Source: Eledone cirrhosa (lineage: Eukaryota). Taken from it: a stretch of DNA of 64,000 nucleotides. The notes under the pieces are model-generated. The model saw only the letters and a list, made by a program, of their open reading frames with translations. It had not been told where the DNA came from and did no database searches. Both the position numbers and the translations under genes were made by a program. The stretch spans positions 22,568,001 through 22,632,000 of the forward strand of contig OZ024759.1 in assembly GCA_964016885.1 (NCBI GenBank), read 5' to 3'. Positions 1-58,914 of the stretch are shown here, one piece after another. Positions within the stretch are counted from its first letter, which is position 1. Each line of letters starts with the position of its first letter.

Positions 1-17
1 GTTGTTGTGTTGTTATT

Positions 18-3000
18 GGTGGCGGCGGCGATGGTGCTGGAGGTGACGGTGGTGGTGATGGCGGTGGAGGTGATGGTGGTGATGTGGAGGTGATGGTGAT
101 GTGGTGGTGATGTGGCGGTGGAGGTGGTAGTGGTGATGGCGGTGGAGGTGATGGTGGTGATGTGGAGGTGATGGCGGTGGAGGTGGTAGTGGTGATGGCG
201 GTGGAGGTGATGGTGGTGATGTGGTGGTGATGTGGCGGTGGAGGTGGTAGTGGTGATGGCGGTGGAGGTGATGGTGGTGATGTGGAGGTGATGGTGGTGA
301 TGTGGAGGTGATGGCGGTGGAGGTGGTAGTGGTGATGGCGGTGGAGGTGATGGTGATGTGGCGGTGGAGGTGATGGCGGTGGAGGTGGTAGTGGTGATGG
401 CGGTGGAGGTGATGGTGGTGATGTGGAGGTGATGGTGGTGATGTGGAGGTGATGGCGGTGGAGGTGGTAGTGGTGATGGCGGTGGAGGTGATGGTGGTGA
501 TGTGGTGGTGATGTGGCGGTGGAGGTGGTAGTGGTGATGGCGGTGGAGGTGATGGTGGTGATGTGGAGGTGATGGTGGTGATGTGGAGGTGATGGCGGTG
601 GAGGTGGTAGTGGTGATGGCGGTGGAGGTGATGGTGATGTGGTGGTGATGTGGCGGTGGAGGTGGTAGTGGTGATGGCGGTGGAGGTGATGGTGGTGATG
701 TGGAGGTGATGGTGGTGATGTGGAGGTGATGGCGGTGGAGGTGGTAGTGGTGATGGCGGTGGAGGTGATGGTGATGTGGTGGTGATGTGGCGGTGGAGGT
801 GGTAGTGGTGATGGCGGCGGAGGTGATGGTGGTGATGTGGAGGTGATGGCGGTGGAGGTGGTAGTGGTGATGGCGGTGGAGGTGATGGTGGTGATGGCGG
901 TGGAGGTGATGGTGGTGATGTGGAGGTGATGGCGGTGGAGGTGGTAGTGGTGATGGCGGCGGAGGTGATGGTGGTGATGTGGAGGTGATGGCGGTGGAGG
1001 TGGTAGTGGTGATGGCGGTGGAGGTGGTAGTGGTGATGGCGGTGGAGGTGATGGTGATGTGGTGGTGATGTGGCGGTGGAGGTGGTAGTGGTGATGGCGG
1101 CGGAGGTGATGGTGGTGATGTGGAGGTGATGGCGGTGGAGGTGGTAGTGGTGATGGCGGTGGAGGTGGTAGTGGTGATGGCGGTGGAGGTGATGGTGATG
1201 TGGTGGTGATGTGGCGGTGGAGGTGGTAGTGGTGATGGCGGCGGAGGTGATGGTGGTGATGTGGAGGTGATGGCGGTGGAGGTGGTAGTGGTGATGGCGG
1301 CGGAGGTGATGGTGGTGATGTGGAGGTGATGGCGGTGGAGGTGGTAGTGGTGATGGCGGTGGAGGTGGTAGTGGTGATGGCGGTGGAGGTGATGGTGATG
1401 TGGTGGTGATGTGGCGGTGGAGGTGGTAGTGGTGATGGCGGCGGAGGTGATGGTGGTGATGTGGAGGTGATGGCGGTGGAGGTGGTAGTGGTGATGGCGG
1501 TGGAGGTGATGGTGGTGATGGCGGTGGAGGTGATGGTGGTGATGTGGAGGTGATGGCGGTGGAGGTGGTAGTGGTGATGGCGGCGGAGGTGATGGTGGTG
1601 ATGTGGAGGTGATGGCGGTGGAGGTGGTAGTGGTGATGGCGGTGGAGGTGGTAGTGGTGATGGCGGTGGAGGTGATGGTGATGTGGTGGTGATGTGGCGG
1701 TGGAGGTGGTAGTGGTGATGGCGGCGGAGGTGATGGTGGTGATGTGGAGGTGATGGCGGTGGAGGTGGTAGTGGTGATGGCGGTGGAGGTGGTAGTGGTG
1801 ATGGCGGTGGAGGTGATGGTGATGTGGTGGTGATGTGGCGGTGGAGGTGGTAGTGGTGATGGCGGTGGAGGTGATGGTGGTGATGTGGAGGTGATGGCGG
1901 TGGAGGTGGTAGTGGTGATGGCGGTGGAGGTGATGGTGGTGATGGCGGTGGAGGTGGTAGTGGTGATGGCGGTGGAGGTGATGGTGATGTGGTGGTGATG
2001 TGGCGGTGGAGGTGGTAGTGGTGATGGCGGTGGAGGTGATGGTGGTGATGGCGGTGGAGGTGGTAGTGGTGATGGCGGTGGAGGTGATGGTGATGTGGTG
2101 GTGATGTGGCGGTGGAGGTGGTAGTGGTGATGGCGGTGGAGGTGATGGTGGTGATGTGGAGGTGATGGCGGTGGAGGTGGTAGTGGTGATGGCGGTGGAG
2201 GTGGTAGTGGTGATGGCGGTGGAGGTGATGGTGATGTGGTGGTGATGTGGCGGTGGAGGTGGTAGTGGTGATGGCGGTGGAGGTGATGGTGGTGATGTGG
2301 AGGTGATGGCGGTGGAGGTGGTAGTGGTGATGGCGGTGGAGGTGATGGTGGTGATGGCGGTGGAGGTGGTAGTGGTGATGGCGGTGGAGGTGATGGTGAT
2401 GTGGTGGTGATGTGGCGGTGGAGGTGGTAGTGGTGATGGCGGCGGAGGTGATGGTGGTGATGTGGAGGTGATGGCGGTGGAGGTGGTAGTGGTGATGGCG
2501 GTGGAGGTGATGGTGGTGATGGCGGTGGAGGTGATGGTGGTGATGTGGAGGTGATGGCGGTGGAGGTGGTAGTGGTGATGGCGGCGGAGGTGATGGTGGT
2601 GATGTGGAGGTGATGGCGGTGGAGGTGGTAGTGGTGATGGCGGTGGAGGTGGTAGTGGTGATGGCGGTGGAGGTGATGGTGATGTGGTGGTGATGTGGCG
2701 GTGGAGGTGGTAGTGGTGATGGCGGCGGAGGTGATGGTGGTGATGTGGAGGTGATGGCGGTGGAGGTGGTAGTGGTGATGGCGGTGGAGGTGGTAGTGGT
2801 GATGGCGGTGGAGGTGATGGTGATGTGGTGGTGATGTGGCGGTGGAGGTGGTAGTGGTGATGGCGGCGGAGGTGATGGTGGTGATGTGGAGGTGATGGCG
2901 GTGGAGGTGGTAGTGGTGATGGCGGCGGAGGTGATGGTGGTGATGTGGAGGTGATGGCGGTGGAGGTGGTAGTGGTGATGGCGGTGGAGGTGGTAGTGGT

Positions 3001-4210
3001 GATGGCGGTGGAGGTGATGGTGATGTGGTGGTGATGTGGCGGTGGAGGTGGTAGTGGTGATGGCGGCGGAGGTGATGGTGGTGATGTGGAGGTGATGGCG
3101 GTGGAGGTGGTAGTGGTGATGGCGGTGGAGGTGATGGTGGTGATGGCGGTGGAGGTGATGGTGGTGATGTGGAGGTGATGGCGGTGGAGGTGGTAGTGGT
3201 GATGGCGGCGGAGGTGATGGTGGTGATGTGGAGGTGATGGCGGTGGAGGTGGTAGTGGTGATGGCGGTGGAGGTGGTAGTGGTGATGGCGGTGGAGGTGA
3301 TGGTGATGTGGTGGTGATGTGGCGGTGGAGGTGGTAGTGGTGATGGCGGCGGAGGTGATGGTGGTGATGTGGAGGTGATGGCGGTGGAGGTGGTAGTGGT
3401 GATGGCGGTGGAGGTGATGGTGATGTGGTGGTGATGTGGCGGTGGAGGTGGTAGTGGTGATGGCGGTGGAGGTGATGGTGGTGATGTGGAGGTGATGGCG
3501 GTGGAGGTGGTAGTGGTGATGGCGGTGGAGGTGATGGTGGTGATGTGGTGGTGATGTGGCGGTGGAGGTGGTAGTGGTGATGGCGGTGGAGGTGATGGTG
3601 GTGATGTGGAGGTGATGGTGGTGATGTGGAGGTGATGGCGGTGGAGGTGGTAGTGGTGATGGCGGTGGAGGTGATGGTGATGTGGCGGTGGAGGTGATGG
3701 CGGTGGAGGTGGTAGTGGTGATGGCGGTGGAGGTGATGGTGGTGATGTGGAGGTGATGGTGGTGATGTGGAGGTGATGGCGGTGGAGGTGGTAGTGGTGA
3801 TGGCGGTGGAGGTGATGGTGGTGATGTGGTGGTGATGTGGCGGTGGAGGTGGTAGTGGTGATGGCGGTGGAGGTGATGGTGGTGATGTGGAGGTGATGGT
3901 GGTGATGTGGAGGTGATGGCGGTGGAGGTGGTAGTGGTGATGGCGGTGGAGGTGATGGTGATGTGGTGGTGATGTGGCGGTGGAGGTGGTAGTGGTGATG
4001 GCGGTGGAGGTGATGGTGGTGATGTGGAGGTGATGGTGGTGATGTGGAGGTGATGGCGGTGGAGGTGGTAGTGGTGATGGCGGTGGAGGTGATGGTGATG
4101 TGGTGGTGATGTGGCGGTGGAGGTGGTAGTGGTGATGGCGGCGGAGGTGATGGTGGTGATGTGGCGGTGGAGGTGGTAGTGGGGAGGATGGTGGTGGTGA
4201 GGTAGAGGTG
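18..4210. repeat. GGT-rich complex minisatellite (GGTGAT/GGCGGTGGA/GGTGGTAGT/GATGT modules)
   Basis: About 4.2 kb built from a few 5-15 nt modules with extreme G/T strand bias. A rare module order at 351 recurs at 3675. Confidence 0.95.
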
Positions 4211-9633: not shown

Positions 9634-10030
9634 ATAAAATATTAAAAAATAATGAATAAAACAAAGAAACAGTTCCTTATATTAAACAAAAAAAGTTCAT
9701 TATTTAACGATCGTTTCTAGGACATATATGTGTTAGAATTGGCATGCATATTCAAAAGATCTATGTACAAAATTATACAAACTATCAAGGAGAATATACA
9801 TACCATCACATATATATGCTGTCTTCAGAAATAATCTGAAGACAGCATATATATGTGATGGTATGTATATTCTCCTTGATAGTTTGTATAATTTTGTACA
9901 TAGATCTTTTGAATATGCATGCCAATTCTAACACATATATGTCCTAGAAACGATCGTTAAATAATGAACTTTTTTTGTTTAATATAAGGAACTGTTTCTT
10001 TGTTTTATTCATTATTTTTTTAATATTTTA
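9634..10030. repeat. Palindrome with ~196-bp arms and 5-nt spacer (fold-back element end)
   Basis: tcttcaga-aataa-tctgaaga centre at 9830-9834. Arms look identical by eye and the right end runs into (TA)n. Confidence 0.95.
9699..9835 (-). ncRNA. Type I hammerhead ribozyme motif with long stem II
   Basis: Minus strand: attattt-CTGAAGA-[cagcatatatatgtg...cacatatatgtccta]-GAAA-cgatcg-TT-aaataat. 7-bp stem I, palindromic stem III acgatcgt, GUU site, imperfect base of stem II. Confidence 0.65.
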
Positions 10031-10238: not shown

Positions 10239-10983
10239 TATATATATATATATATCCATATGTAGTTGACATACGAGAGAAAAGAATGTTCAATACCGAA
10301 GAAGAGTTTAAATAGTGAGTCTGGTGTTTCACCTTCGCACACAGAGGCCCCAACTCTCTCTTATATATATATATATATATATATACCTCAACACACAAGA
10401 GAACGAGCCTTGTAATTAAGTCAACTGCACATCATAAAAAAATCAATATTAAATGAACAAGAACACATCGATGTTTATAATCGATATATTAAAGTATTAG
10501 AATCGATACTCAAGGCAAGATTTGCCCCCAACAGCTCACACCAATTGTATTTCTACTAACGACCTTGAAGAATGAAACCTAAACATTGCCTGCTCTCGTT
10601 TCTTCGCTCATTCATTTCTTTCTTCCCTCACCCCCGTTCCTTTTTTCAATCCATCATCCACTCCTTCCTTCCTTTCTCATTCCTCCACTCTTTCCACCCT
10701 CCCCTTTTCTTCTTTTCCTTCGTCTGCCCTTTCCTATCCCTCCCCTGTTCCTTTCTCCCTTCCACACACCATACACAATAGAATAATTACTAAAATAACA
10801 CCAGAAACAACAAATTAAACTCCACAACACAACAGGACTGATGCAATAGATTAACAGGAGGAGCCAGTACCCACCTTCCACCACCACCACCACCACCACC
10901 ACCACAACAGTAAGAACACAATGCTGCCAACACCTTAGGAACACGGAGGTGCACCATGTGATATAGTAGGAAATGATAATAAT

Positions 10984-11177
10984 AATTGTTTCTACTTTTG
11001 GCACAAGGCCAGCAATTAAACCAGTGCATTACTGGTACTCTATTTTATCGAGCCTGTAACGAGGAAAGGCAAAGTTAACCTCGGCGGGATTTGAACTCAG
11101 ATCACAAAGGGTCGTAACTCTAGGCTGCAAAGCACGGCGTCCGACCCTCTACCGATTCTGCCAATCCACCGCCCCAT
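10984..11177 (-). mobile_element. SINE family 1 copy
   Basis: Full head-to-core match ending ctgccaatccaccgcc. Confidence 0.85.
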
Positions 11178-11380
11178 AATAATAAACGAAAGGGAAACGA
11201 TTGAAGAGACCCAAGACCTCATTCACTTACCGAGTGGAGTGAAACTCATCAAATCGAACCGAGGAAACAATGTTTCCATTGCTCTTTCTATTACTGATAC
11301 TATCTACCAGTCGCAACCCCCGACAGAAAGAGCAATATGAAATAAATAAAGTCTATTGCTCAAGGACTTAACGTTTAAAA

Positions 11381-14300
11381 CAGTGGTTCCCAACCTTTTG
11401 TGCTCCGTACCCCACCGCAACATCTCAAGCGTTTTTATGCCCCCTTTTGATATAAAAACAGCGATGATCAACAACAAAGTGCAACCAAATTGCTGTATGG
11501 GTGGTGCCAGATGCACAATAACACGTGGAGGAGGTGAGACACGAGTTTCCGACAGCAATGTGTACCAAAGTTGCCTTGGTGTAGGTGGTGCCAGATGCAC
11601 AATAACACGTGGAGGAGGTGAGACACGAGTTTCCGACAGCAATGTGTACCAAAGTTGCCTTGGTGTAGGTGGTGCCAGATGCACAATAACACGTGTGGAG
11701 GAGGTGAGACACGGGTTTCCGACAGTACTGTGTACCAAAGTTGCCTTGGTGTAGGTGGTGCCAGATGCACAATAACACGTGGAGGAGGTGAGACACGAGT
11801 TTCCGACAGTAATGTGTACCAAAGTTGCCTTGGTGTAGGTGGTGCCAGATGCACAATAACACGTGGAGGAGGTGAGACACGAGTTTCCGACAGTAATGTG
11901 TACCAAAGTTGCCTTGGTGTAGGTGGTGCCAGATGCACAATAACACGTGTGGAGGAGGTGAGACACGGGTTTCCGACAGTACTGTGTACCAAAGTTGCCT
12001 TGGTGTAGGTGGTGCCAGATGCACAATAACACGTGTGGAGGAGGTGAGACACGAGTTTCCGACAGTAATGTGTACCAAAGTTGCCTTGGTGTAGGTGGTG
12101 CCAGATGCACAATAACACGTGTGGAGGAGGTGAGACACGAGTTTCCGACAGTAATGTGTACCAAAGTTGCCTTGGTGTAGGTGGTGCCAGATGCACAATA
12201 ACACGTGTGGAGGAGGTGAGACACGGGTTTCCGACAGTAATGTGTACCAAAGTTGCCTTGGTGTAGGTGGTGCCAGATGCACAATAACACGTGTGGAGGA
12301 GGTGAGACACGAGTTTCCGACAGTAATGTGTACCAAAGTTGCCTTGGTGTAGGTGGTGCCAGATGCACAATAACACGTGTGGAGGAGGTGAGACACGGGT
12401 TTCCGACAGTAATGTGTACCAAAGTTGCCTTGGTGTAGGTGGTGCCAGATGCACAATAACACGTGTGGAGGAGGTGAGTCACGAGTTTCCGACAGTAATG
12501 TGTACCAAAGTTGCTTTGGTGTAGGTGGTGCCAGATGCACAATAACACGTGTGGAGGAGGTGAGACACGGGTTTCCGACAGTACTGTGTACCAAAGTTGC
12601 CTTGGTGTAGGTGGTGCCAGATGCACAATAACACGTGTGGAGGAGGTGAGACACGGGTTTCCGACAGTAATGTGTACCAAAGTTGCCTTGGTGTAGGTGG
12701 TGCCAGATGCACAATAACACGTGGAGGAGGTGAGACACGAGTTTCCGACAGTAATGTGTACCAAAGTTGCCTTGGTGTAGGTGGTGCCAGATGCACAATA
12801 ACACGTGGAGGAGGTGAGACACGAGTTTCCGACAGTAATGTGTACCAAAGTTGCCTTGGTGTAGGTGGTGCCAGATGCACAATAACACGTGTGGAGGAGG
12901 TGAGACACGGGTTTCCGACAGTAATGTGTACCAAAGTTGCCTTGGTGTAGGTGGTGCCAGATGCACAATAACACGTGGAGGAGGTGAGACACGAGTTTCC
13001 GACAGTAATGTGTACCAAAGTTGCCTTGGTGTAGGTGGTGCCAGATGCACAATAACACGTGGAGGAGGTGAGACACGAGTTTCCGACAGTAATGTGTACC
13101 AAAGTTGCCTTGGTGTAGGTGGTGCCAGATGCACAATAACACGTGTGGAGGAGGTGAGACACGGGTTTCCGACAGTACTGTGTACCAAAGTTGCCTTGGT
13201 GTAGGTGGTGCCAGATGCACAATAACACGTGGAGGAGGTGAGACACGAGTTTCCGACAGTAATGTGTACCAAAGTTGCCTTGGTGTAGGTGGTGCCAGAT
13301 GCACAATAACACGTGTGGAGGAGGTGAGACACGGGTTTCCGACAGTACTGTGTACCAAAGTTGCCTTGGTGTAGGTGGTGCCAGATGCACAATAACACGT
13401 GTGGAGGAGGTGAGACACGGGTTTCCGACAGTACTGTGTACCAAAGTTGCCTTGGTGTAGGTGGTGCCAGATGCACAATAACACGTGTGGAGGAGGTGAG
13501 ACACGGGTTTCCGACAGTACTGTGTACCAAAGTTGCCTTGGTGTAGGTGGTGCCAGATGCACGATAACACGTGTGGAGGAGGTGAGACACGGGTTTCCGA
13601 CAGTACTGTGTACCAAAGTTGCCTTGGTGTAGGTGGTGCCAGATGCACAATAACACGTGTGGAGGAGGTGAGACACGGGTTTCCGACAGCAATGTGTACC
13701 AAAGTTGCCTTGGTGTAGGTGGTGCCAGATGCACAATAACACGTGGAGGAGGTGAGACACGAGTTTCCGACAGTACTGTGTACCAAAGTTACCTTGGTGT
13801 AGGTGGTGCCAGATGCACAATAACACGTGGAGGAGGTGAGACACGGGTTTCCGACAGTAATGTGTACCAAAGTTGCCTTGGTGTAGGTGGTGCCAGATGC
13901 ACAATAACACGTGTGGAGGAGGTGAGACGGGAGTTTCTGACAGTAATGTCTACCAAAGTTACCTTGGTGTAGGTGGTGCCAGATGCACAATAACACGTGT
14001 GGAGGAGGTGAGACACGAGTTTCCGACAGTACTGTGTACCAAAGTTGCCTTGGTGTAGGTGGTGCCAGATGCACAATAACACGTGTGGAGGAGGTGAGAC
14101 ACGAGTTTCCGACAGTAATGTGTACCAAAGTTGCCTTGGTGTAGGTGGTGCCAGATGCACAATAACACGTGGAGGAGGTGAGACACGGGTTTCCGACAGT
14201 TATGTGTACCAAAGTTGCCTTGGTGTAGGTGGTGCCAGATGCACAATAACACGTGGAGGAGGTGAGACACGGGTTTCCGACAGCAATGTGTACCAAAGTT

Positions 14301-17300
14301 GCCTTGGTGTAGGTGGTGCCAGATGCACAATAACACGTGGAGGAGGTGAGACACGAGTTTCCGACAGTAATGTGTACCAAAGTTGCCTTGGTGTAGGTGG
14401 TGCCAGATGCACAATAACACGTGGAGGAGGTGAGACACGGGTTTCCGACAGCAATGTGTACCAAAGTTGCCTTGGTGTAGGTGGTGCCAGATGCACAATA
14501 ACACGTGGAGGAGGTGAGACACGGGTTTCCGACAGTAATGTGTACCAAAGTTGCCTTGGTGTAGGTGGTGCCAGATGCACAATAACACGTGGAGGAGGTG
14601 AGACACGGGTTTCCGACAGCAATGTGTACCAAAGTTGCCTTGGTGTAGGTGGTGCCAGATGCACAATAACACGTGGAGGAGGTGAGACACGGGTTTCCGA
14701 CAGTAATGTGTACCAAAGTTGCCTTGGTGTAGGTGGTGCCAGATGCACAATAACACGTGGAGGAGGTGAGACACGGGTTTCCGACAGCAATGTGTACCAA
14801 AGTTGCCTTGGTGTAGGTGGTGCCAGATGCACAATAACACGTGGAGGAGGTGAGACACGGGTTTCCGACAGTAATGTGTACCAAAGTTGCCTTGGTGTAG
14901 GTGGTGCCAGATGCACAATAACACGTGTGGAGGAGGTGAGACACGGGTTTCCGACAGTTATGTGTACCAAAGTTGCCTTGGTGTAGGTGGTGCCAGATGC
15001 ACAATAACACGTGTGGAGGAGGTGAGACACGGGTTTCCGACAGTAATGTGTACCAAAGTTGCCTTGGTGTAGGTGGTGCCAGATGCACAATAACACGTGT
15101 GGAGGAGGTAAGACACGGGTTTCCGACAGTAATTTGTTCAAAAGTTGCCTTGGTGTAGGTGGTGCCAGATGCACAATAACACGTGTGGAGGAGGTGAGAC
15201 ACGAGTTTCCGACAGTAATGTGTACCAAAGTTGCCTTGGTGTAGGTGGTGCCAGATGCACAATAACACGTGGAGGAGGTGAGACACGGGTTTCCGACAGT
15301 TATGTGTACCAAAGTTGCCTTGGTGTAGGTGGTGCCAGATGCACAATAACATGTGTGGTGGAGGTGAGACAGGGAGTTTCTGACAGTAATGTGTACCACA
15401 GTTGCCTTGGTGTAGGTGGTGCCAGATGCACAATAACACGTGGAGGAGGTGAGACACGGGTTTCCGACAGCAATGTGTACCAAAGTTGCCTTGGTGTAGG
15501 TGGTGCCAGATGCACAATAACACGTGGAGGAGGTGAGACACGGGTTTCCGACAGTAATGTGTACCAAAGTTGCCTTGGTGTAGGTGGTGCCAGATGCACA
15601 ATAACACGTGGAGGAGGTGAGACACGGGTTTCCGACAGCAATGTGTACCAAAGTTGCCTTGGTGTAGGTGGTGCCAGATGCACAATAACACGTGGAGGAG
15701 GTGAGACACGGGTTTCCGACAGTAATGTGTACCAAAGTTGCCTTGGTGTAGGTGGTGCCAGATGCACAATAACACGTGGAGGAGGTGAGACACGGGTTTC
15801 CGACAGCAATGTGTACCAAAGTTGCCTTGGTGTAGGTGGTGCCAGATGCACAATAACACGTGGAGGAGGTGAGACACGGGTTTCCGACAGCAATGTGTAC
15901 CAAAGTTGCCTTGGTGTAGGTGGTGCCAGATGCACAATAACACGTGGAGGAGGTGAGACACGGGTTTCCGACAGCAATGTGTACCAAAGTTGCCTTGGTG
16001 TAGGTGGTGCCAGATGCACAATAACACGTGGAGGAGGTGAGACACGGGTTTCCGACAGCAATGTGTACCAAAGTTGCCTTGGTGTAGGTGGTGCCAGATG
16101 CACAATAACACGTGGAGGAGGTGAGACACGGGTTTCCGACAGTTATGTGTACCAAAGTTGCCTTGGTGTAGGTGGTGCCAGATGCACAATAACACGTGGA
16201 GGAGGTGAGACACGGGTTTCCGACAGCAATGTGTACCAAAGTTGCCTTGGTGTAGGTGGTGCCAGATGCACAATAACACGTGGAGGAGGTGAGACACGGG
16301 TTTCCGACAGTAATGTGTACCAAAGTTGCCTTGGTGTAGGTGGTGCCAGATGCACAATAACACGTGTGGAGGAGGTGAGACACGGGTTTCCGACAGTACT
16401 GTGTACCAAAGTTGCCTTGGTGTAGGTGGTGCCAGATGCACAATAACACGTGTGGAGGAGGTGAGACGGGAGTTTCTGACAGTAATGTCTACCAAAGTTA
16501 CCTTGGTGTAGGTGGTGCCAGATGCACAATAACACGTGTGGAGGAGGTGAGACACGAGTTTCCGACAGTACTGTGTACCAAAGTTGCCTTGGTGTAGGTG
16601 GTGCCAGATGCACAATAACACGTGTGGAGGAGGTGAGACACGAGTTTCCGACAGTAATGTGTACCAAAGTTGCCTTGGTGTAGGTGGTGCCAGATGCACA
16701 ATAACACGTGGAGGAGGTGAGACACGGGTTTCCGACAGTTATGTGTACCAAAGTTGCCTTGGTGTAGGTGGTGCCAGATGCACAATAACACGTGGAGGAG
16801 GTGAGACACGGGTTTCCGACAGCAATGTGTACCAAAGTTGCCTTGGTGTAGGTGGTGCCAGATGCACAATAACACGTGGAGGAGGTGAGACACGGGTTTC
16901 CGACAGTAATGTGTACCAAAGTTGCCTTGGTGTAGGTGGTGCCAGATGCACAATAACACGTGGAGGAGGTGAGACACGGGTTTCCGACAGCAATGTGTAC
17001 CAAAGTTGCCTTGGTGTAGGTGGTGCCAGATGCACAATAACACGTGGAGGAGGTGAGACACGGGTTTCCGACAGTAATGTGTACCAAAGTTGCCTTGGTG
17101 TAGGTGGTGCCAGATGCACAATAACACGTGTGGAGGAGGTGAGACACGGGTTTCCGACAGTTATGTGTACCAAAGTTGCCTTGGTGTAGGTGGTGCCAGA
17201 TGCACAATAACACGTGTGGAGGAGGTGAGACACGGGTTTCCGACAGTAATGTGTACCAAAGTTGCCTTGGTGTAGGTGGTGCCAGATGCACAATAACACG

Positions 17301-19585
17301 TGTGGAGGAGGTGAGACACGAGTTTCCGACAGTAATGTGTACCAAAGTTGCCTTGGTGTAGGTGGTGCCAGATGCACAATAACACGTGGAGGAGGTGAGA
17401 CACGGGTTTCCGACAGTTATGTGTACCAAAGTTGCCTTGGTGTAGGTGGTGCCAGATGCACAATAACATGTGTGGTGGAGGTGAGACAGGGAGTTTCTGA
17501 CAGTAATGTGTACCACAGTTGCCTTGGTGTAGGTGGTGCCAGATGCACAATAACACGTGGAGGAGGTGAGACACGGGTTTCCGACAGCAATGTGTACCAA
17601 AGTTGCCTTGGTGTAGGTGGTGCCAGATGCACAATAACACGTGGAGGAGGTGAGACACGGGTTTCCGACAGTAATGTGTACCAAAGTTGCCTTGGTGTAG
17701 GTGGTGCCAGATGCACAATAACACGTGGAGGAGGTGAGACACGGGTTTCCGACAGCAATGTGTACCAAAGTTGCCTTGGTGTAGGTGGTGCCAGATGCAC
17801 AATAACACGTGGAGGAGGTGAGACACGGGTTTCCGACAGTAATGTGTACCAAAGTTGCCTTGGTGTAGGTGGTGCCAGATGCACAATAACACGTGGAGGA
17901 GGTGAGACACGGGTTTCCGACAGCAATGTGTACCAAAGTTGCCTTGGTGTAGGTGGTGCCAGATGCACAATAACACGTGGAGGAGGTGAGACACGGGTTT
18001 CCGACAGCAATGTGTACCAAAGTTGCCTTGGTGTAGGTGGTGCCAGATGCACAATAACACGTGGAGGAGGTGAGACACGGGTTTCCGACAGCAATGTGTA
18101 CCAAAGTTGCCTTGGTGTAGGTGGTGCCAGATGCACAATAACACGTGGAGGAGGTGAGACACGGGTTTCCGACAGCAATGTGTACCAAAGTTGCCTTGGT
18201 GTAGGTGGTGCCAGATGCACAATAACACGTGGAGGAGGTGAGACACGGGTTTCCGACAGTTATGTGTACCAAAGTTGCCTTGGTGTAGGTGGTGCCAGAT
18301 GCACAATAACACGTGGAGGAGGTGAGACACGGGTTTCCGACAGCAATGTGTACCAAAGTTGCCTTGGTGTAGGTGGTGCCAGATGCACAATAACACGTGG
18401 AGGAGGTGAGACACGGGTTTCCGACAGTAATGTGTACCAAAGTTGCCTTGGTGTAGGTGGTGCCAGATGCACAATAACACGTGTGGAGGAGGTGAGACAC
18501 GGGTTTCCGACAGTACTGTGTACCAAAGTTGCCTTGGTGTAGGTGGTGCCAGATGCACAATAACACGTGTGGAGGAGGTGAGACGGGAGTTTCTGACAGT
18601 AATGTCTACCAAAGTTACCTTGGTGTAGGTGGTGCCAGATGCACAATAACACGTGTGGAGGAGGTGAGACACGAGTTTCCGACAGTACTGTGTACCAAAG
18701 TTGCCTTGGTGTAGGTGGTGCCAGATGCACAATAACACGTGTGGAGGAGGTGAGACACGAGTTTCCGACAGTAATGTGTACCAAAGTTGCCTTGGTGTAG
18801 GTGGTGCCAGATGCACAATAACACGTGGAGGAGGTGAGACACGGGTTTCCGACAGTTATGTGTACCAAAGTTGCCTTGGTGTAGGTGGTGCCAGATGCAC
18901 AATAACACGTGGAGGAGGTGAGACACGGGTTTCCGACAGCAATGTGTACCAAAGTTGCCTTGGTGTAGGTGGTGCCAGATGCACAATAACACGTGGAGGA
19001 GGTGAGACACGGGTTTCCGACAGTAATGTGTACCAAAGTTGCCTTGGTGTAGGTGGTGCCAGATGCACAATAACACGTGGAGGAGGTGAGACACGGGTTT
19101 CCGACAGCAATGTGTACCAAAGTTGCCTTGGTGTAGGTGGTGCCAGATGCACAATAACACGTGGAGGAGGTGAGACACGGGTTTCCGACAGTAATGTGTA
19201 CCAAAGTTGCCTTGGTGTAGGTGGTGCCAGATGCACAATAACACGTGTGGAGGAGGTGAGACACGGGTTTCCGACAGTTATGTGTACCAAAGTTGCCTTG
19301 GTGTAGGTGGTGCCAGATGCACAATAACACGTGTGGAGGAGGTGAGACACGGGTTTCCGACAGTAATGTGTACCAAAGTTGCCTTGGTGTAGGTGGTGCC
19401 AGATGCACAATAACACGTGTGGAGGAGGTAAGACACGGGTTTCCGACAGTAATTTGTTCAAAAGTTGCCTTGGTGTAAAAGTAATAAGGTAAAACCCGAA
19501 GTTTGCTCTCATTAACATCATTTTGAAATTGCCCTCCTTCAATATTCAAATTTCTCCCCAGTGCACCCCACGTTGGGAATCACTG
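11381..19585. mobile_element. Non-autonomous hAT transposon carrying an expanded satellite
   Basis: TIRs cagtggttcccaac (11381-11394) and gttgggaatcactg (19572-19585) match 13/14. Perfect 8-bp TSD gtttaaaa (11373-11380, 19586-19593). No transposase sequence inside. Confidence 0.9.
11500..19477. repeat. 84/86-bp tandem array, about 94 units, with a 2117-bp higher-order period
   Basis: Unit ggtggtgccagatgcacaataacac(gt)gtggaggaggtgagacacg(a/g)gtttccgacag(t/c)aatgtgtaccaaagttgccttggtgta. Identical ORF pairs at 15145/17262 and 16326/18443 are 2117 bp apart. Confidence 0.97.
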
Positions 19586-20222
19586 GTTTAAAACAATACA
19601 AACAACAACAAATCTGCACATACCCAAGGCACGCAGAGCTGTGCTCAGTAATGCAGTGATGATACACAATAAAGATATGACTAATAAACTTATGATAACA
19701 ATAAGATAATTTGTTATATAAAAATTAAAAATTTAAATACAAAAACATTTTTTTCCACAATTTTAACTCATTGTTTTGCTCAGTTGGTTGTTGATGTTTT
19801 TTCTCTCTCCTCCATTTCCTACCCGTAACCCCACCCCTCGATAGAAAGAAAGGAAGAAAGGAAGGAAGACGTAAACAAAAGCAACAAATTATAACCTTTG
19901 TTCTTCTGCTTGATTGCCATGGAATTTATCTTTTTTCGATATTTTAAATTGAAAATTGATCAATAGAAATCATCGAAGAAAAAAATCTAAACAAAAAAAA
20001 AAAATCTAAAACAGAGATACTCTGTGTGTGTGTGTTTGATCATGTATGTGTGTGTTTGATTATGTATATTTGTGTGTGTGTTCGATTATGTATATCTGTA
20101 TGTGCATGTGTGTTTATATATATATGTGTGTTTATATATAAACACACATGCACACACACATATACATATTCGAACACACACACAAATATACATAATCAAT
20201 TTATATATTTATATATATATAC

Positions 20223-20415
20223 AATATATTAATAAATGGAAACTATATTTATAAAACCATATTTATTCCATTATACATATTTCAAGGGCAACCAAGGCAA
20301 ATTATGGTGCGCTTTCATCAGATAAAATACAGATTTGTTTTATAAATATAGTTTCCATTTATTAATATATTGTGTATTTACTCCACTAACTTGTTGAGTG
20401 CTTTATATCAGTTAT
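20223..20415. mobile_element. PLE-like terminal fragment with 33-bp inverted arms and a degenerate hammerhead
   Basis: Inverted repeat 20223-20255 / 20339-20371. Minus strand CTGATGA-aag...ctt-GAAA-tatgta at 20321-20274. Related sequence at ~27770-27885. Confidence 0.5.
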
Positions 20416-25370: not shown

Positions 25371-25422
<52 letters not shown>

Positions 25423-25451
25423 CACACACGCACATATATGTATATATACAT

Positions 25452-25491
<40 letters not shown>

Positions 25492-25567
25492 TATATATGT
25501 ATGTATATATATATATATATATGTGTGTATGCATGTATGTATATGTATGCATGTATGTATATGTATG

Positions 25568-25600
<33 letters not shown>
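25200..25600. repeat. Inverted duplication of a compound microsatellite block
   Basis: The + ORF at 25241 and the - ORF at 25552 translate identically for more than 100 residues. Centre lies in (TA)n at ~25372-25420. Confidence 0.85.
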
Positions 25601-25614
<14 letters not shown>

Positions 25615-25677
25615 ATACATATATATATTTATATATATATATACTGATATGTATATATACATATATGTGTGTGTGTA

Positions 25678-25715
<38 letters not shown>

Positions 25716-25718
<3 letters not shown>

Positions 25719-25907
25719 AAAGAATTGTGGTAAGGAACCAGATGGACCATAACGCACCAGAGTACTCAATACTTAGGGTAGTAGAGTGGGAAATAGGAAA
25801 AAGTATGACCCCGACGGCAGAAATTACGCCGTTTCGACGGCTATTTCTGAGTCCAGAAATACCAGTCGAAACGGCTTGAGCTCTGCCGTCGGGGTCATAC
25901 TTTTTCC

Positions 25908-25910
<3 letters not shown>
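25716..25910. mobile_element. TA-embedded fold-back element, family B
   Basis: Long arm plus inverted short arm joined at ttctg|agtccagaa. Confidence 0.9.
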
Positions 25911-25939
<29 letters not shown>

Positions 25940-25969
25940 CTGATATGTATATATATATGTGTGTGCGTA

Positions 25970-26546: not shown

Positions 26547-26595
<49 letters not shown>

Positions 26596-26597
<2 letters not shown>

Positions 26598-26753
26598 CGG
26601 AGGAAATGTGGTAAGGAACCAGGTGGACCATAACGCACCAAAGTACTCAATACTTAGGGTAGTAGAGTGGGTAATAGGAACGAGTAAGACCCCGACGGCT
26701 GCGCTCAAGCCGTTTCGACGGCTAATTCTGGACTAAATATTATTTTACTCGTT

Positions 26754-26757
<4 letters not shown>
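26596..26757. mobile_element. TA-embedded element, family B
   Basis: Same sequence with a very short inverted tail tactcgttcc(ta)n. Confidence 0.9.
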
Positions 26758-26851
<94 letters not shown>

Positions 26852-26909
26852 CATATACATATATGGATTTGTCTTCACATTTATTATTATTACTATATAT
26901 ACATATATT

Positions 26910-26979
<70 letters not shown>

Positions 26980-27025
26980 TGGATTTGTCTTCACATTTAT
27001 TATTATTACTATATATACATATATT

Positions 27026-27068
<43 letters not shown>

Positions 27069-28601: not shown

Positions 28602-28643
<42 letters not shown>

Positions 28644-28953
28644 ATGAAACGAAATTTCATTTCTCACTCTTAGTACGGTTCTTACTTAAATGTAAGTATG
28701 TATGTATACGTACATTCATATATGTATACAGACGTACATATATATGTGTGCATGTATGTATATATATACATACTACTGTACGTCTGTATACATATATGTA
28801 TGTACGTACGTATACATACTTACAGAAAATTTATTCTTAAAGCTTGCTAGATTTGATTTTGTATATGGTTAATTACGCTAATTCGAAGAAGAAATAGTAT
28901 ATATTTTAATATCTGATGATTCTATAGACATGATTTATGATATATATATATAT

Positions 28954-29122
28954 ATAACGAAGGAAATGTGGTAAGGAACCAGATGGACTATAACGCACCA
29001 AAGTACTCAATACTTAGGGTAGTAGAGTGGGTAATAGGAACGAGTAGGACCCCGACGGCTGAGCTCAAGCCAGAATTAGCCGTCGAAACGGCTTGAGCTC
29101 AGCCGTCGGGGTCCTACTCGTT

Positions 29123-29125
<3 letters not shown>
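28954..29125. mobile_element. TA-embedded fold-back element, family B
   Basis: Long arm, junction at aagc|cagaatt, inverted short arm. Confidence 0.9.
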
Positions 29126-29160
<35 letters not shown>

Positions 29161-32596: not shown

Positions 32597-32642
<46 letters not shown>

Positions 32643-32645
<3 letters not shown>

Positions 32646-33175
32646 GGAAAAGAATGAAACGAAATTTCATTTCTCACTCTTAGTACGCTGATATTTAAAT
32701 GTAAATATGAATGTATACGTACATACATATATGTATATAGACGTACAGTAGTATGTATATATATATACATACATGCACACACATATATATATGTACGTAT
32801 GGGTTTACCGAACATTTATTATAATGTTCGGTTTGTTTGTAAACAAACAAACAGCCCGAATTACGCCGTACAGTGTTCAGGCAACAATCGTCGCCTTTTT
32901 GTTCAACACTGACACAGGAACGATGTACTAGTTTCAAGCTTATTAGCTATCGTCAGCATCGTATACCTTCCTGCCAGATGATTGAACGTCTGAAAGTATA
33001 TACTTTCCTTATGCATATTCACGGCTGAGCAGCCTAATTTGCATATCGAGTGAGTTAGTCGGCCGGGCGCACCGAAAACGATAAATGGAAAAGAATGAAA
33101 CTAAATTTCATTTCTCACTCTTAGTACGGCTGGTACTTAAATGTAAATATGAATGTATACGTACATACATATATG
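32643..33175 (-). mobile_element. TA-embedded element family C, 1.2 tandem units (~440-bp period)
   Basis: The first ~90 bp (aaatggaaaagaatgaaac...) recur at 33083. Homologues at 59415-59846 and 28638-28825. Confidence 0.8.
32920..32962 (-). ncRNA. Minimal type I hammerhead ribozyme (family C)
   Basis: acgatg-CTGACGA-t[agct-aata-agct]t-GAAA-cta-GTA-catcgt. 6-bp stem I, palindromic actagt stem III. Confidence 0.85.
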
Positions 33176-33557
33176 AGTCCAGAAATAGCCGTCGAAACGG
33201 CTTGAGCTCTGCTGTCGGGGTCATACTTGTTCCTATATATATATATATATATATAGGAACCAGTAAGACCCCGACAGCTGAGCTCAAGCCGTTTCGACGG
33301 CTAATTCTGGACTGAATTAGCCGTCGAAACGGCTTGAGCTCAGCTGTCGGGGTCTTACTGGTTCCTATTACCCACTCTACTACCTCAAGTATTGAGTACT
33401 TTGGTGCGTTATGGTCCACCTGGTTCCTTACCACATTTCCTTCGTTATATATATATATATATATATATATATAACGAAGGAAATGTGGTAAGGAACCAGG
33501 TGGACCAGAATTAGCCGTCGAAACGGCTTGAGCTTAGCCGTCGGGGTCGTACTCGTT

Positions 33558-33612
<55 letters not shown>

Positions 33613-33700
33613 CGAAGGAAATGTGGTAAGGAACCAGGTGGACCAGAATTAGCCGTCGAAACGGTTTGAGCTCAGCCGTCGGGGTCCTACTCGTTCCTAT
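33175..33700. mobile_element. Cluster of family B fragments in alternating orientations
   Basis: Several arms separated by (TA)n. An internally deleted ~90-bp version is duplicated at 33472 and 33610. Confidence 0.9.
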
Positions 33701-33994
33701 ATATATATAAATAAATATATATATATATTTATATACGGAATCTTCACCTTTATATTTCAAATAAAAGTGCACAGTATTGACGAAACTAATATCGTTTATT
33801 ACTTTATTGTTTTCAGATTAAAATAGAATTTAGTATTTATATTTAGAGATTGAAACAAGTTATAATCGATGTTTCTGGTATGATTATCTTCAAGTGTTTT
33901 AATCCTTATAATCTTACTGTCAGCTTCAGTTATGGGTGTTCTCAGGCTGTTGTTGTTGTTGTTGTTTTTATATTCTTCATCGCACTCCTTTACA

Positions 33995-36075: not shown

Positions 36076-36205
36076 CATACATATATATATATATACATAT
36101 ATATATATACATATATATATGTATATATATACGTATATATACATATATATATATATACGTATATATATATATATATACGCATATATATATATATATATAT
36201 ATATA

Positions 36206-36908
<703 letters not shown>

Positions 36909-36909
36909 C

Positions 36910-37122
36910 ATACATAAATAAATACATATATATATACATATATATATATTTATATATATATATACATATATATATACATATATATATACATATATATATA
37001 TTTATATATATATATACATATATATATACATATATATATACATATATATATATTTATATATATATATACATATATATATACATATATATATATTTATATA
37101 TATATATATATATACATATATA

Positions 37123-40307: not shown

Positions 40308-40691
40308 AGAAAGAAAGATAGAAAGAAAGATAGAAAGATAGAAAGAAGGAATGGTGGTGGTGGTGGGCGCGGGGGTAGAGTTAGAAATGTGAAGGAGGAA
40401 AACTTTATCCTCTTGGTTGAACGGTACATCCGTGCCGCAACCCCGTAGACAAGATGGTGAAAACATTACTACGGAGAGTAGCCAACGACACTTACTTCAC
40501 CAACCATCTCACTCCACAGAGTCTCGCCCCCTTTCTTTAGATGTGATGCCCTCCTGTCGGTTTGAGAAATAATCTTTCATTTCAAACAAAACAAGAAATG
40601 AAATAAAAACCAATACGTAGAAAGGAAAAAGAAAACACCAAAACATGCACTCTGACAAAATAGTCAGATTCACACTAGTCTGTATTGTCTA

Positions 40692-41595
40692 TAATTGTTT
40701 CTACTTTAGGCACAAGGCCAGAAAATACCCAGTACATTACTGGTACTTTATTTTATCGACCCCGTAAGGATGAAAGGCAAAGTTAACCTCGGCGGGATTT
40801 GAACTCAGACTGTAAAGGGACGCAACTATGCTAGAAAGCATGGCGTCCAACCCTCTACCGATACTGCCAAGTCTATAATAAAGGTAGATGTAGAACTATA
40901 TAATTATTTCTACTTTTGGCACAAGGCCAGCAATTATTCCAGTGCATTACTGGTACTTTATTTCATCGACCCCGTAAGGATGAAAGGCAAAGTTAACCTC
41001 GGTGGGATTTGAACTCAGACCATAAAGGGCCGTAACTCTTTGCGTCAAAGCATTGCGTCCGACCTTCTACCGATACTGCCAATCCACTATATAATGAAAG
41101 TGCGATTCTCTAACTGGAAGGTGCATTGTGATCTTGAGCAAGATACTTTATTTCACGTTGAACCAGTCCACTCAGCTGGAAAAAAGATGAGTTGCAACGA
41201 CAATGATGCCAATCTTTATAGACCTTTACATTTCTTGTAGATGTGGAACTATAAAATGGTTTCTTATTTAGGCACAACGCCAGCCATTTTGGGGGAGGGG
41301 AAAGTCGATTAAATCGACCCCAGTGCGTAACTGGTACTTATCGACCCCGTAAGGATGAAAGGCAAAGCTAACCTCGGCGGGATTTATGTGGAACTATATA
41401 ATTATTTCTACTTTTGGCAGAACGCCAGCTATTATCCAGTGCATTACTGGTACTTTATTTTATCGACCCAGTAAGGACGAAAGGCAAAGTTAAGGTCAGC
41501 GGTATTTGAACTGAGAATGGCAAGAGGCTGTAACTCTATGCTGCAAAGCAGGGTGTCCGACCCTCTACCGATACTGCCAATCCACAGCCCTATAT
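40692..41595 (-). mobile_element. Cluster of four SINE family 1 copies
   Basis: Core repeated near 40740, 40950, 41330 and 41450. Confidence 0.85.
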
Positions 41596-42146: not shown

Positions 42147-42291
42147 TTTGGGAGGAGCATGCTGCCAATAAAAACATACGCACCTCACGGTTTTCACTTC
42201 AATTCATTATGAATTTCTGGTTGGTTCGATAACCAGAAGGTTGTTTATATATTGTCAAAGCTCTTTCGTCACACATTCTGTGACCTCCTCA

Positions 42292-42322
<31 letters not shown>

Positions 42323-42426
42323 GTGTGTATGTGTGTGTGTATTTACATATATATATGTGTGTATGTATATATATATATATATATATACTTATACAGATAA
42401 ACACATATATACCTATATAGATGTAT

Positions 42427-43038
42427 ATGGTGGCTGCCAACTCGTTTTCGAGTACGGCCACTACTTTATATCCATGTAGGAGAACCCCTACCGATGCGCT
42501 GAACGAGTGTGACTTTTTAGTCCAGCCAGCGACTTGAAAACTCTGGTAAAAACACTACACTTGTGACAATTATTGACACATAGTGCTGGACCCATGGTAC
42601 CATGTGACGACAAGTGCAGAGAGATCTCCAGATATAAAGCAATGCCTGTGCCGTGAAGCTTTTATAGTGAGCAAAGGCACTGCACAAAGCCAGTCCCACT
42701 CTCTTAACCAAGATGATATTTACCAAAAAGAAGAACAAGTCAACATCATTGGATACCATCAGAGTTGCAGGTGTTATATCAGAGCTTTCCTTCTCCTAGA
42801 ATTCTACCTTGACAAAGGCTAAGGGGTCATCTCTCCCGGTGATTTTGGATGGCCATTGACTCTTAAGAGCTCCTTTGCTCTTTGACAGGTTTTGTTTTTA
42901 GTCCTGCAGGATGTCAAAAGTCACCCTCCTCACCAAGAAACCTTGGTGGGGTTGCCAGTTTAGTCGCCAACGACCCGATCATGAGACAGGTTGTACTGGG
43001 ATACATGTTACCAGTAGCACCAACTGGTGACCTGACAT
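42427..43038 (-). mobile_element. Second copy of the ~600-bp element
   Basis: Near-identical pseudo-ORFs (36386/42517 and 36452/42583). Confidence 0.85.
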
Positions 43039-43044
43039 AGATGT

Positions 43045-43088
<44 letters not shown>

Positions 43089-47694: not shown

Positions 47695-48226
47695 ATCGCC
47701 GAGGTTAACTTTGCCTTTCATCCTTACGGGGTCGATAAAATAAAGTACCAGTAATACACTGGGATAATTGCTGGCCTTGTGCCAAAAGTAGAAACAATTA
47801 TTAGCAGTGGCTTGGCAGTATCGGCAGAACGTCGGACGCCATGCTTTGCAGCATAGAGTTACGGCTCTTTACAAACTGAGGTCAAATCCTAAGGTTAGCT
47901 TTGCCTTTCATCTTTACGGGGTCGATAAAATAAAGTACCAGTAACGTACTGGGGTCGATTTAATCCACTCCCCTGCCCCCGCCAAATTGTTGGCCTTGTG
48001 CCTAAATTAGAAACCATTATATGTCTGTACATTAAGGGCGGTGGATTGGCAGTATCGGTAGAGGGTCGGACGCCATGCTTTGCAGCAAAGAGTTACGTCC
48101 CTTTACGGTCTGAATTCAAATCCCGCCGAGGTTAACTTTCCCTTTCATCCTTACGGGGTCGATAAAATAAAGTACCAGTTATGTACTGGAGTAATTGCTG
48201 GCCTTGTGCCAAACGTAGAAACAATG
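47695..48226 (+). mobile_element. Three tandem SINE family 1 copies
   Basis: Head ggcggtggattggcagtatcggtag and B box ttcaaatcccgcc. Confidence 0.85.
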
Positions 48227-48315
48227 ATATATCTGTACATTAATCCTATCTCCATCAGCTAAGAATGCCTGTAATATTAATGTCTTCTGGGTATTCTTCT
48301 GACATGCTAATAAAG

Positions 48316-58646: not shown

Positions 58647-58914
58647 GTATATGGCCCTTAAAGCGATGAAATGCCTGGGACGGTTGGAGGGTCACTGATG
58701 AAGGACTTACTTTTTCATATGCACCACCATTTGCAACGCGCAGCCATCATTATTATCATATATATATATATATGTATATATAAAGTATACCATGAGTCTG
58801 ATTAGCTCTTAATTCCAGGGATAAAGATCGCACCTTGGTCTGATCATTCGCGAAACGCGCATCACACCTGAATAAACTTAATGATGATATTCTGACACCT
58901 TTTTCCTTGGCTGT

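What the first reader, a model, noticed from the sequence alone, without database searches (positions are those of the whole stretch)
11373..19593. An 8-kb satellite grown entirely inside a small hAT transposon
Seen: the 84/86-bp array is enclosed by only ~120 bp and ~108 bp of unique sequence. These end in 14-bp TIRs (cagtg(g/a)ttcccaac) with a perfect 8-bp TSD gtttaaaa. Known: CAG-starting TIRs with 8-bp TSDs are hAT hallmarks, and MITE-borne tandem repeats can seed satellites. Inference: a 300-400 bp MITE whose internal unit expanded roughly 90-fold, either in place or carried as cargo, so this may be a satellite caught at birth.
Basis: partly seen in the sequence, partly recalled or inferred. 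Interest (0 to 1): 0.7.

Follow-up and report, generated by a model that had tools for sequence, protein, structure and literature searches.

The report
Tandem array inside a hAT transposon
An 8-kb run of 94 tandem repeats fills 97% of a gene-less element with the ends and target-site duplication of a hAT cut-and-paste transposon; the repeats likely multiplied inside the element, a route to satellite DNA already described for other transposon families.

Summary
An 8,205-bp element (11381-19585) has 14-bp terminal inverted repeats (13/14 match) and an exact, non-palindromic 8-bp target-site duplication. Inside are a 119-bp left arm, 94 units of 84/86/87 bp (7,978 bp) and a 108-bp right arm. No shuffled flank pair of 5,000 came close. 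The ends match published Charlie/Buster-type hAT termini, and the target site fits nnnTAnnn. No transposase is present.

New here: the array has block structure. A 2,117-bp stretch is duplicated exactly, and the diverged last unit is copied once internally. The late expansions therefore likely happened with the right arm attached.

'Caught at birth' is not shown. A decayed partial unit in the left arm suggests the repeat is old in the element. One locus cannot separate growth in place from transposition as cargo. The exact duplication could be an assembly error. No eukaryotic genome search was available, so other copies, empty sites and free-standing arrays are untested.

Arrays inside transposons are known (miDNA4 MITE; oyster Helitrons up to 89 monomers); my literature searches found no hAT case. 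Verdict: a clean new member of a known kind.

The parts
11373..11380 (+). left 8-bp target-site duplication (central TA, non-palindromic)
   Evidence: fits nnnTAnnn and NYYTARRN
11381..11394 (+). left terminal inverted repeat; 11381-11396 matches the 16-bp TIR of Anolis hAT-N3_AC exactly
11381..11499 (+). left arm, 119 bp, 44.5% GC, no second copy in the window
11470..11499 (+). [quoted passage not shown]
   Evidence: anchored alignment score 17 vs null -1.1 +/- 5.1, p 0.002; unanchored p 0.08
11500..19477 (+). tandem array, 94 units of 84/86/87 bp, 7,978 bp, 51% GC
11500..13885 (+). 5' domain of the array (units 1-28): its own mix of variants, holds all four single-copy unit types, takes part in none of the 15 longest multi-unit repeats
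14538..15157 (+). 620-bp internal exact copy of the array's last 620 bp (18858-19477), including the diverged terminal unit (unit 43 = unit 94)
15158..17274 (+). first copy of an exact 25-unit (2,117-bp) block duplication, units 44-68
   Evidence: exact match 15141-17312 vs 17258-19429
17275..19391 (+). second copy of the 25-unit block, units 69-93; a very recent duplication or an assembly artefact
19392..19477 (+). terminal unit 94, 4 substitutions from the nearest common 86-bp type
19478..19585 (+). right arm, 108 bp, 39.8% GC, no second copy in the window
19572..19585 (-). right terminal inverted repeat
19586..19593 (+). right 8-bp target-site duplication

Best explanation
This is a gene-less element with hAT-type ends and an exact 8-bp target-site duplication, likely inserted by a Charlie/Buster-type transposase encoded elsewhere, whose internal 84-bp repeat likely grew to 94 copies inside the element by out-of-register block duplications. 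Shown: the TIRs, TSD, arms, array, the exact 2,117-bp duplication, and the internal copy of the terminal unit. Inferred step 1: a transposase acting in trans cut and pasted the element into this TA-centred site (about 0.93). Inferred step 2: the parent already carried a short array, because a decayed partial unit sits in the left arm and the edge unit has diverged (about 0.6). Inferred step 3: unequal sister-chromatid or homologue exchange, or template switching in repair, copied blocks of about 25-30 units. At least one such event ran through the last unit and rejoined within its final 17 or so bases, so the right arm was likely already attached (about 0.75). Inferred step 4: most of the growth took place after insertion at this locus (about 0.55). 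No function is proposed; it is most likely neutral, length-variable DNA.
For: Ends: 13/14 TIR and 8/8 TSD, far beyond chance. The TIR matches Charlie-related Anolis hAT families, and the TSD fits the Buster consensus. No transposase: 0 of 140 non-array reading frames hit a transposase family in Pfam; the only hit was a PT repeat. The array frames gave only sub-cutoff hits. Block growth: the longest identical run is 25 units against a maximum of 6 in 300 order shuffles, with further runs at offsets of 26, 30, 51 and 55 units. The 620-bp exact match stops at the last base of the array, where one copy enters the right arm and the other continues into a normal unit. Left-arm remnant p 0.002 when anchored. 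The same sequence of events was proposed for the miDNA4 MITE, as summarised in PMC12628747 and PMC10048060.
Against: Only one copy was examined; no short sibling and no empty site was seen. The right arm shows no significant unit remnant (anchored p 0.68 and 0.16; unanchored p 0.06), and the left remnant is not significant unanchored (p 0.08). No subterminal motif longer than 6 bp is shared between the arms in inverted orientation outside the TIR. The arms (119 and 108 bp) are shorter than the minimal Tol2 ends (261/202; 200/150), although a 135-bp Anolis hAT MITE has over 1,000 copies. hAT elements can move 10 kb or more, so length does not force growth in place. The 2,117-bp duplication has no mismatch, and the window holds another flawless tandem (591 bp x 3.5), so an assembly artefact is possible. 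An 8/8 TSD gives almost no age constraint.
Confidence: 0.62

Rival explanations
1. Cargo: the array was already long in a donor copy, or was captured from a satellite elsewhere during gap repair, and the multi-kb element transposed here as one piece.
For: Tol2 moves over 10 kb nearly as well as 5 kb. Anolis hobo_AC elements of 9-15 kb with captured DNA stayed active. Both TIRs and the TSD are intact. The array is 51% GC against 40-45% in the arms and 33% in the window to its right, which would fit a foreign origin. The miDNA4 model begins with capture of an existing repeat.
Against: The in-register remnant in the left arm and the internal copy of the terminal unit argue against capture of a finished array, though not against growth in a donor copy. 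The published model has transposition falling as arrays lengthen. The unit has no copy outside the element in the window.
Confidence: 0.27
2. The element is real but its length is inflated by assembly: one 2,117-bp block was written twice, so the true array has about 69 units (5.9 kb). This is compatible with the best explanation and changes only the size.
For: Zero mismatches over 2,172 bp, and a second flawless tandem duplication at 60703-62768.
Against: Older, imperfect block repeats at other offsets and 17 structured unit types are what real turnover leaves. The window has no N gaps. A recent real duplication would also be exact.
Confidence: 0.2
3. The TIR and TSD are chance matches around an ordinary minisatellite.
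For: The TIR is only 14 bp, and the arms have no other copy in the window.
Against: 0 of 5,000 shuffles came close. No complex, non-palindromic case arose in 20,000 real segment pairs apart from 3 draws of one AT-microsatellite-like pair. The ends independently match published hAT TIRs.
Confidence: 0.02
4. The array is a protein-coding repeat or a captured exon: 84 bp is 28 codons and four of six frames are open.
For: Stop-free frames reach 1,419 codons on the minus strand, and 4 of 6 frames of the 84-bp unit are open.
Against: 40 of 94 units are 86 or 87 bp; the 38 units of 86 bp shift the frame. No homologue in two word-index searches. The 10 hits in the exhaustive search are at 21-38% identity; the five read are unrelated, mostly repetitive proteins, and the best gives BLAST E 0.10 pairwise. 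Pfam hits are all below cutoff. The Atlas best score is 0.79, at the level of shuffled proteins.
Confidence: 0.02

Closest known systems
Non-autonomous Charlie/Buster-type hAT elements (Anolis hAT-HT3N1/N3_AC, hAT-N3_AC, SPIN_NA1_AC; Drosophila Mar)
   Same: Short TIR of nearly the same sequence (16/16 to hAT-N3_AC at the left end; 13/14 to hAT-HT3_AC at both ends), 8-bp TA-centred TSD, slightly imperfect TIRs, no coding capacity.
   Different: The closest families listed are 135-833 bp and no internal tandem array is reported for them in the section read. This element is 8.2 kb and 97% array. Similarity beyond the TIR was not testable.
miDNA4 (Tc1/mariner MITE of Xenopus tropicalis) and Xmix/Xstir (Xenopus laevis)
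   Same: A TIR-bounded non-autonomous element holding a monomer or a variable array, proposed as a seed of satellite DNA (as described in reviews; original papers not seen).
   Different: miDNA4 belongs to a different superfamily (Tc1/mariner). Those cases rest on many copies and on free arrays; here there is one locus.
Helitron/Helentron central arrays of bivalves (CgiSat01 = Cg170/HindIII of Crassostrea gigas; DTC84 of Donax trunculus) and DINE-TR1
   Same: Short conserved ends around a tandem array. Element-associated arrays reach 89 monomers in oyster. DTC84 also has position-specific unit variants.
   Different: Those are classed as rolling-circle or pearl-type elements with an AA putative TSD and an adjacent microsatellite. 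This one has cut-and-paste hAT ends and an 8-bp TSD, so rolling-circle transposition cannot explain its growth.
Tetris foldback transposon (Drosophila virilis)
   Same: A DNA transposon that supplied the units of an emerging satellite (search listing and review table only).
   Different: There the repeats (TIR-220) come from the TIRs. Here the array is central and one-directional between short TIRs.

Membership tests
hAT superfamily (non-autonomous) | 8-bp target-site duplication | tested here: met
   8/8 at 11373-11380 and 19586-19593
hAT superfamily (non-autonomous) | short TIR (5-27 bp) beginning with the YARNG motif | tested here: met
   14 bp, 13/14, begins CAGTG; definitions
hAT superfamily (non-autonomous) | ends shared with an autonomous hAT transposase-coding partner in the same genome | not testable with these tools
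   no transposase in the window; no eukaryotic genome collection available
hAT superfamily (non-autonomous) | subterminal transposase-binding repeats | tested here: inconclusive
   only scattered 5-7-mers are shared between the arms; the motif for this family is unknown
Buster/Charlie family of hAT | nnnTAnnn target-site preference | tested here: inconclusive
   the single TSD fits nnnTAnnn but also fits the Ac consensus nTnnnnAn; one site is not a preference
Buster/Charlie family of hAT | TIR sequence like Charlie-related families | tested here: met
   matches hAT-N3_AC and hAT-HT3_AC in PMC3014272 Table 1
Buster/Charlie family of hAT | transposase falls in the Buster clade | not testable with these tools
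   the element encodes no transposase
MITE | TIRs, TSD, no coding capacity | tested here: met
MITE | short length (hundreds of bp) | tested here: not met
   8,205 bp as it stands; only the inferred one-unit form (311-313 bp) would qualify
MITE | many dispersed, similar copies | not testable with these tools
   1 copy in 64 kb; genome not available
Satellite DNA family | head-to-tail homogenised monomers in a long array | tested here: met
   94 units, 2.4% divergence, 8 kb, with block (higher-order) structure
Satellite DNA family | genome-level abundance or arrays free of element ends | not testable with these tools
   no copy of the unit outside the element in the window; rest of genome unavailable
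Helitron/Helentron or pearl-type elements with central repeats | no 8-bp TSD; AA or AT site, 3' hairpin end, adjacent microsatellite | tested here: not met
   8-bp TSD and true TIRs; no microsatellite in either arm

The most novel reading that the evidence does not exclude
The whole 8.2-kb unit is mobile. A Charlie/Buster-type hAT family would then cut and paste multi-kilobase arrays with ready-made higher-order structure around this genome, using only about 230 bp of end sequence. That would make it a cut-and-paste satellite shuttle, a role documented so far mainly for rolling-circle Helitrons, with each insertion a datable replicate of satellite growth.
Probability: 0.2. Interest if true: 0.62.

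Novelty: new member of a known kind. Interest (0 to 1): 0.38.

Why it matters
How satellite arrays start and spread is an open question. The model in which a repeat amplifies inside a small transposon rests on a few families (miDNA4, Xstir, Tetris, Helitron arrays). This locus is an unusually clean test case: both ends and the TSD are intact, the array is fully resolved, and its unit order records successive block duplications. If siblings with 1-10 units exist, the family would give a series from MITE to 8-kb array in a hAT, a superfamily absent from the main text of the five review or survey papers I searched for the term. On its own it extends a known phenomenon. Practical point: the minus strand has stop-free frames of up to 1,419 codons that could mislead gene predictors.

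Tried and rejected
Other copies: none in the window for the arms or unit. No match for 11381-11760 in 50,697 phage or 72,556 plasmid records, and no exact 25-nt unit match in GTDB genomes. These are prokaryotic sets, so the blanks say nothing about the host genome. Viral and metagenome contig collections stayed unchecked, and no eukaryotic DNA collection was available.

Empty site: the two flanks joined in silico matched no paralogue across the TSD. The right flank matches 54083-54148 at 83%, but that match does not extend into the left flank.

Mis-annotated proteins as a proxy for other copies: none. The cluster look-up for four of those hits could not be made, so their sources are unknown.

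RNA families: 0 Rfam hits in the window. Hairpin-driven expansion: unit folding is not unusual (z -0.33 to -0.78); only the right arm folds somewhat better than shuffles (z -2.17, one of five sequences tried).

A simple slippage origin from one unit bracketed by short direct repeats was considered. It is not favoured: read by eye from the alignments, the internal units resemble the left remnant at their 5' side and the terminal unit at their 3' side, the reverse of the hybrid such a duplication would leave. A remnant in the right arm was not significant.

A site-by-site recombination and polarity analysis of the unit variants was not run, so the mechanism (crossover versus conversion) stays open.

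Host: the dispersed SINE-like repeat reminds me of the abundant octopus SINE (recalled, from no call). A literature search with a 16-nt motif found nothing, so the host is unverified. The first real-segment control was swamped by TA microsatellites and was redone with categories. No supplementary files were read; repeat libraries in supplements or Repbase/Dfam may already hold this family.
Full report
1. Observation. The window is AT-rich, microsatellite-laden DNA typical of an animal genome. No recognisable gene was found: of 140 non-array reading frames scanned, only one hit Pfam, a PT repeat, and Rfam gave 0 hits. The finding is exact. gtttaaaa occurs at 11373-11380 and 19586-19593. Directly inside lie 14-bp inverted repeats that differ only at position 6. 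Between them are a 119-bp arm, an array at 11500-19477 and a 108-bp arm. The array has 94 units (54 x 84, 38 x 86, 2 x 87 bp), 17 distinct sequences and 2.4% mean substitution divergence. It makes up 7,978 of 8,205 bp (97%).

2. Chance. In 5,000 dinucleotide shuffles of the real 300-bp flanks, none gave an exact 8-mer with a TIR of 3 or fewer mismatches. In 20,000 random pairs of real window segments, 17,542 gave nothing, 2,445 only microsatellite matches, 10 palindromic 8-mers and 3 the same AT-microsatellite-like pair. A whole-window scan gave 9 TSD-plus-TIR candidates. Seven have palindromic 8-mers, as any inverted repeat produces, one is low-complexity, and one is this element.

3. What kind of ends. 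Table 1 of PMC3014272 (section 8 read in full) lists Anolis hAT families related to Charlie. The left end here equals the 16-bp TIR of hAT-N3_AC. Both ends match hAT-HT3_AC at 13 of 14 positions, and the G/A difference falls where that consensus has R, so it is probably a family asymmetry and not decay (inference). The TSD fits NYYTARRN from that table and the Buster consensus nnnTAnnn (passages of PMC3517528, PMC3499496 and bioRxiv 10.1101/2022.09.16.508221). It also fits the Ac consensus, so the Buster assignment rests on the TIR. PMC3342881 (passages) describes hATs as typically having 16-bp TIRs and 8-bp TA-centred TSDs. The element codes for nothing recognisable: four of six frames of the 84-bp unit are open, but 38 units shift the frame and no protein relative was found.

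4. Units 44-68 are identical to units 69-93: a 25-unit, 2,117-bp block, against a longest run of at most 6 in 300 shuffles of unit order. The exact match spans 2,172 bp. Shorter identical runs occur at offsets of 26, 30, 51 and 55 units. Units 1-28 take part in none of the 15 longest runs and hold all four single-copy types. The last unit differs from its nearest common type by four substitutions and occurs once more, as unit 43. The 620 bp ending at unit 43 equal the last 620 bp of the array, and the match stops exactly where one copy enters the right arm and the other continues into a normal unit. The simplest reading is that an array ending in this edge unit, with the arm attached, was partly copied by an out-of-register exchange (inference). 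A deletion that happened to end at a unit boundary is a less economical alternative. The 3' half thus appears to be built from kilobase blocks on a precursor of about 43 units.

5. Is the repeat native and new? [quoted passage not shown] The right arm shows no significant remnant (p 0.06 unanchored; 0.68 and 0.16 anchored). A decayed edge copy beside a homogenised interior suggests a repeat that has been in the element for some time and recently expanded, not one just born. This is modest evidence. Against a native origin, the array is GC-richer (51%) than the arms (40-45%) and the window to its right (33%).

6. In place or as cargo. One locus cannot decide. Tol2 carries over 10 kb efficiently (abstract and passages of PMC1635535), and Anolis hobo_AC elements of 9-15 kb remained active. 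The arms are shorter than minimal Tol2 ends, but a 135-bp hAT MITE exists at over 1,000 copies. I put most growth in place at about 0.55, leaning on the published expectation that transposition falls and recombination rises as arrays lengthen (PMC10048060 passages). No second copy or empty site exists in the window. Phage, plasmid and prokaryotic genome sets were blank, which is uninformative for a eukaryote.

7. Assembly caveat. The 2,117-bp duplication has no mismatch, and the window has a second flawless tandem (591 bp x 3.5). If one block is an artefact, the array has 69 units. The ends, the internal terminal-unit copy and the conclusion would remain.

8. Comparison with what is known. Tandem arrays inside non-autonomous transposons are established: miDNA4 and Xstir in Xenopus (seen only through reviews PMC12628747, PMC9659126 and PMC6947457; passages), DTC84 in a clam (abstract and Discussion of PMC3879986), oyster Helitrons with up to 89 monomers (passages of PMC8268682) and Tetris (listing and review table only). 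This locus works like miDNA4 but has hAT ends. It is not a MITE by length as it stands, not a Helitron, and not shown to be a satellite family. I found no hAT-borne satellite in five library searches, but most listed papers were not opened and the library lacks subscription journals. 'hAT' occurs 0 times in four of the five surveys checked and only in the references of the fifth. From recall, not from any call, repeat databases do hold non-autonomous hATs with internal minisatellites, so I do not claim a first. The host is unverified; a SINE-like repeat reminds me of octopus (recalled; one search found nothing).

9. Verdict. This is a non-autonomous Charlie/Buster-type hAT element whose internal repeat likely expanded inside it by block duplication (confidence 0.62). 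It is a new member of a known kind, interest 0.38. The boldest reading not excluded, a cut-and-paste shuttle of multi-kilobase arrays, has probability 0.2 and would merit 0.62.

Noticed in passing
window 60703-62768: A 591-bp non-coding unit repeated 3.5 times with 100% identity; a very recent tandem duplication or an assembly artefact.
   Followed up: partly
window about 9640-10025: A near-perfect palindrome: about 190-bp arms matching without a mismatch around a loop of about 6 bases. Long perfect hairpins are usually unstable; foldback element or artefact.
   Followed up: partly
window about 20195-20385: A small AT-rich element with inverted arms around a short core, MITE-like.
   Followed up: no
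window 17-4210: A 4.2-kb GGT-rich array with a 141-bp higher-order period and extreme GC skew (0.87); the minus strand is stop-free for 1,405 codons.
   Followed up: no
window 10982-11174, 40691-41594, 47697-48228, 58907-59213 and others: An abundant dispersed SINE-like repeat of about 200 bp, 77-93% identical among copies, some in tandem. It recalls the octopus SINE (recalled, unverified; blank).
   Followed up: partly
window 19592-19660 and 54083-54148: The DNA just right of the insertion is a 69-bp fragment of another dispersed repeat (83% identity) with a CAA-rich stretch, so the hAT element appears to have landed at the edge of an older repeat.
   Followed up: partly
window 36167-36956 and 42291-43085; 32627-33106 and 59397-59847: Two dispersed duplications of 800 bp (92%) and 480 bp (85%), probably unclassified transposon copies.
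   Followed up: no
window 25380-25940, 26547-27059, 28605-29157, 33237-33735, 62713-63362: A family of short elements embedded in TA microsatellites, present in both orientations.
   Followed up: no
window 12479-16738 (minus strand): All three minus-strand frames of the 84-bp unit lack stops, giving spurious ORFs of up to 1,419 codons with no homologues.
   Followed up: yes
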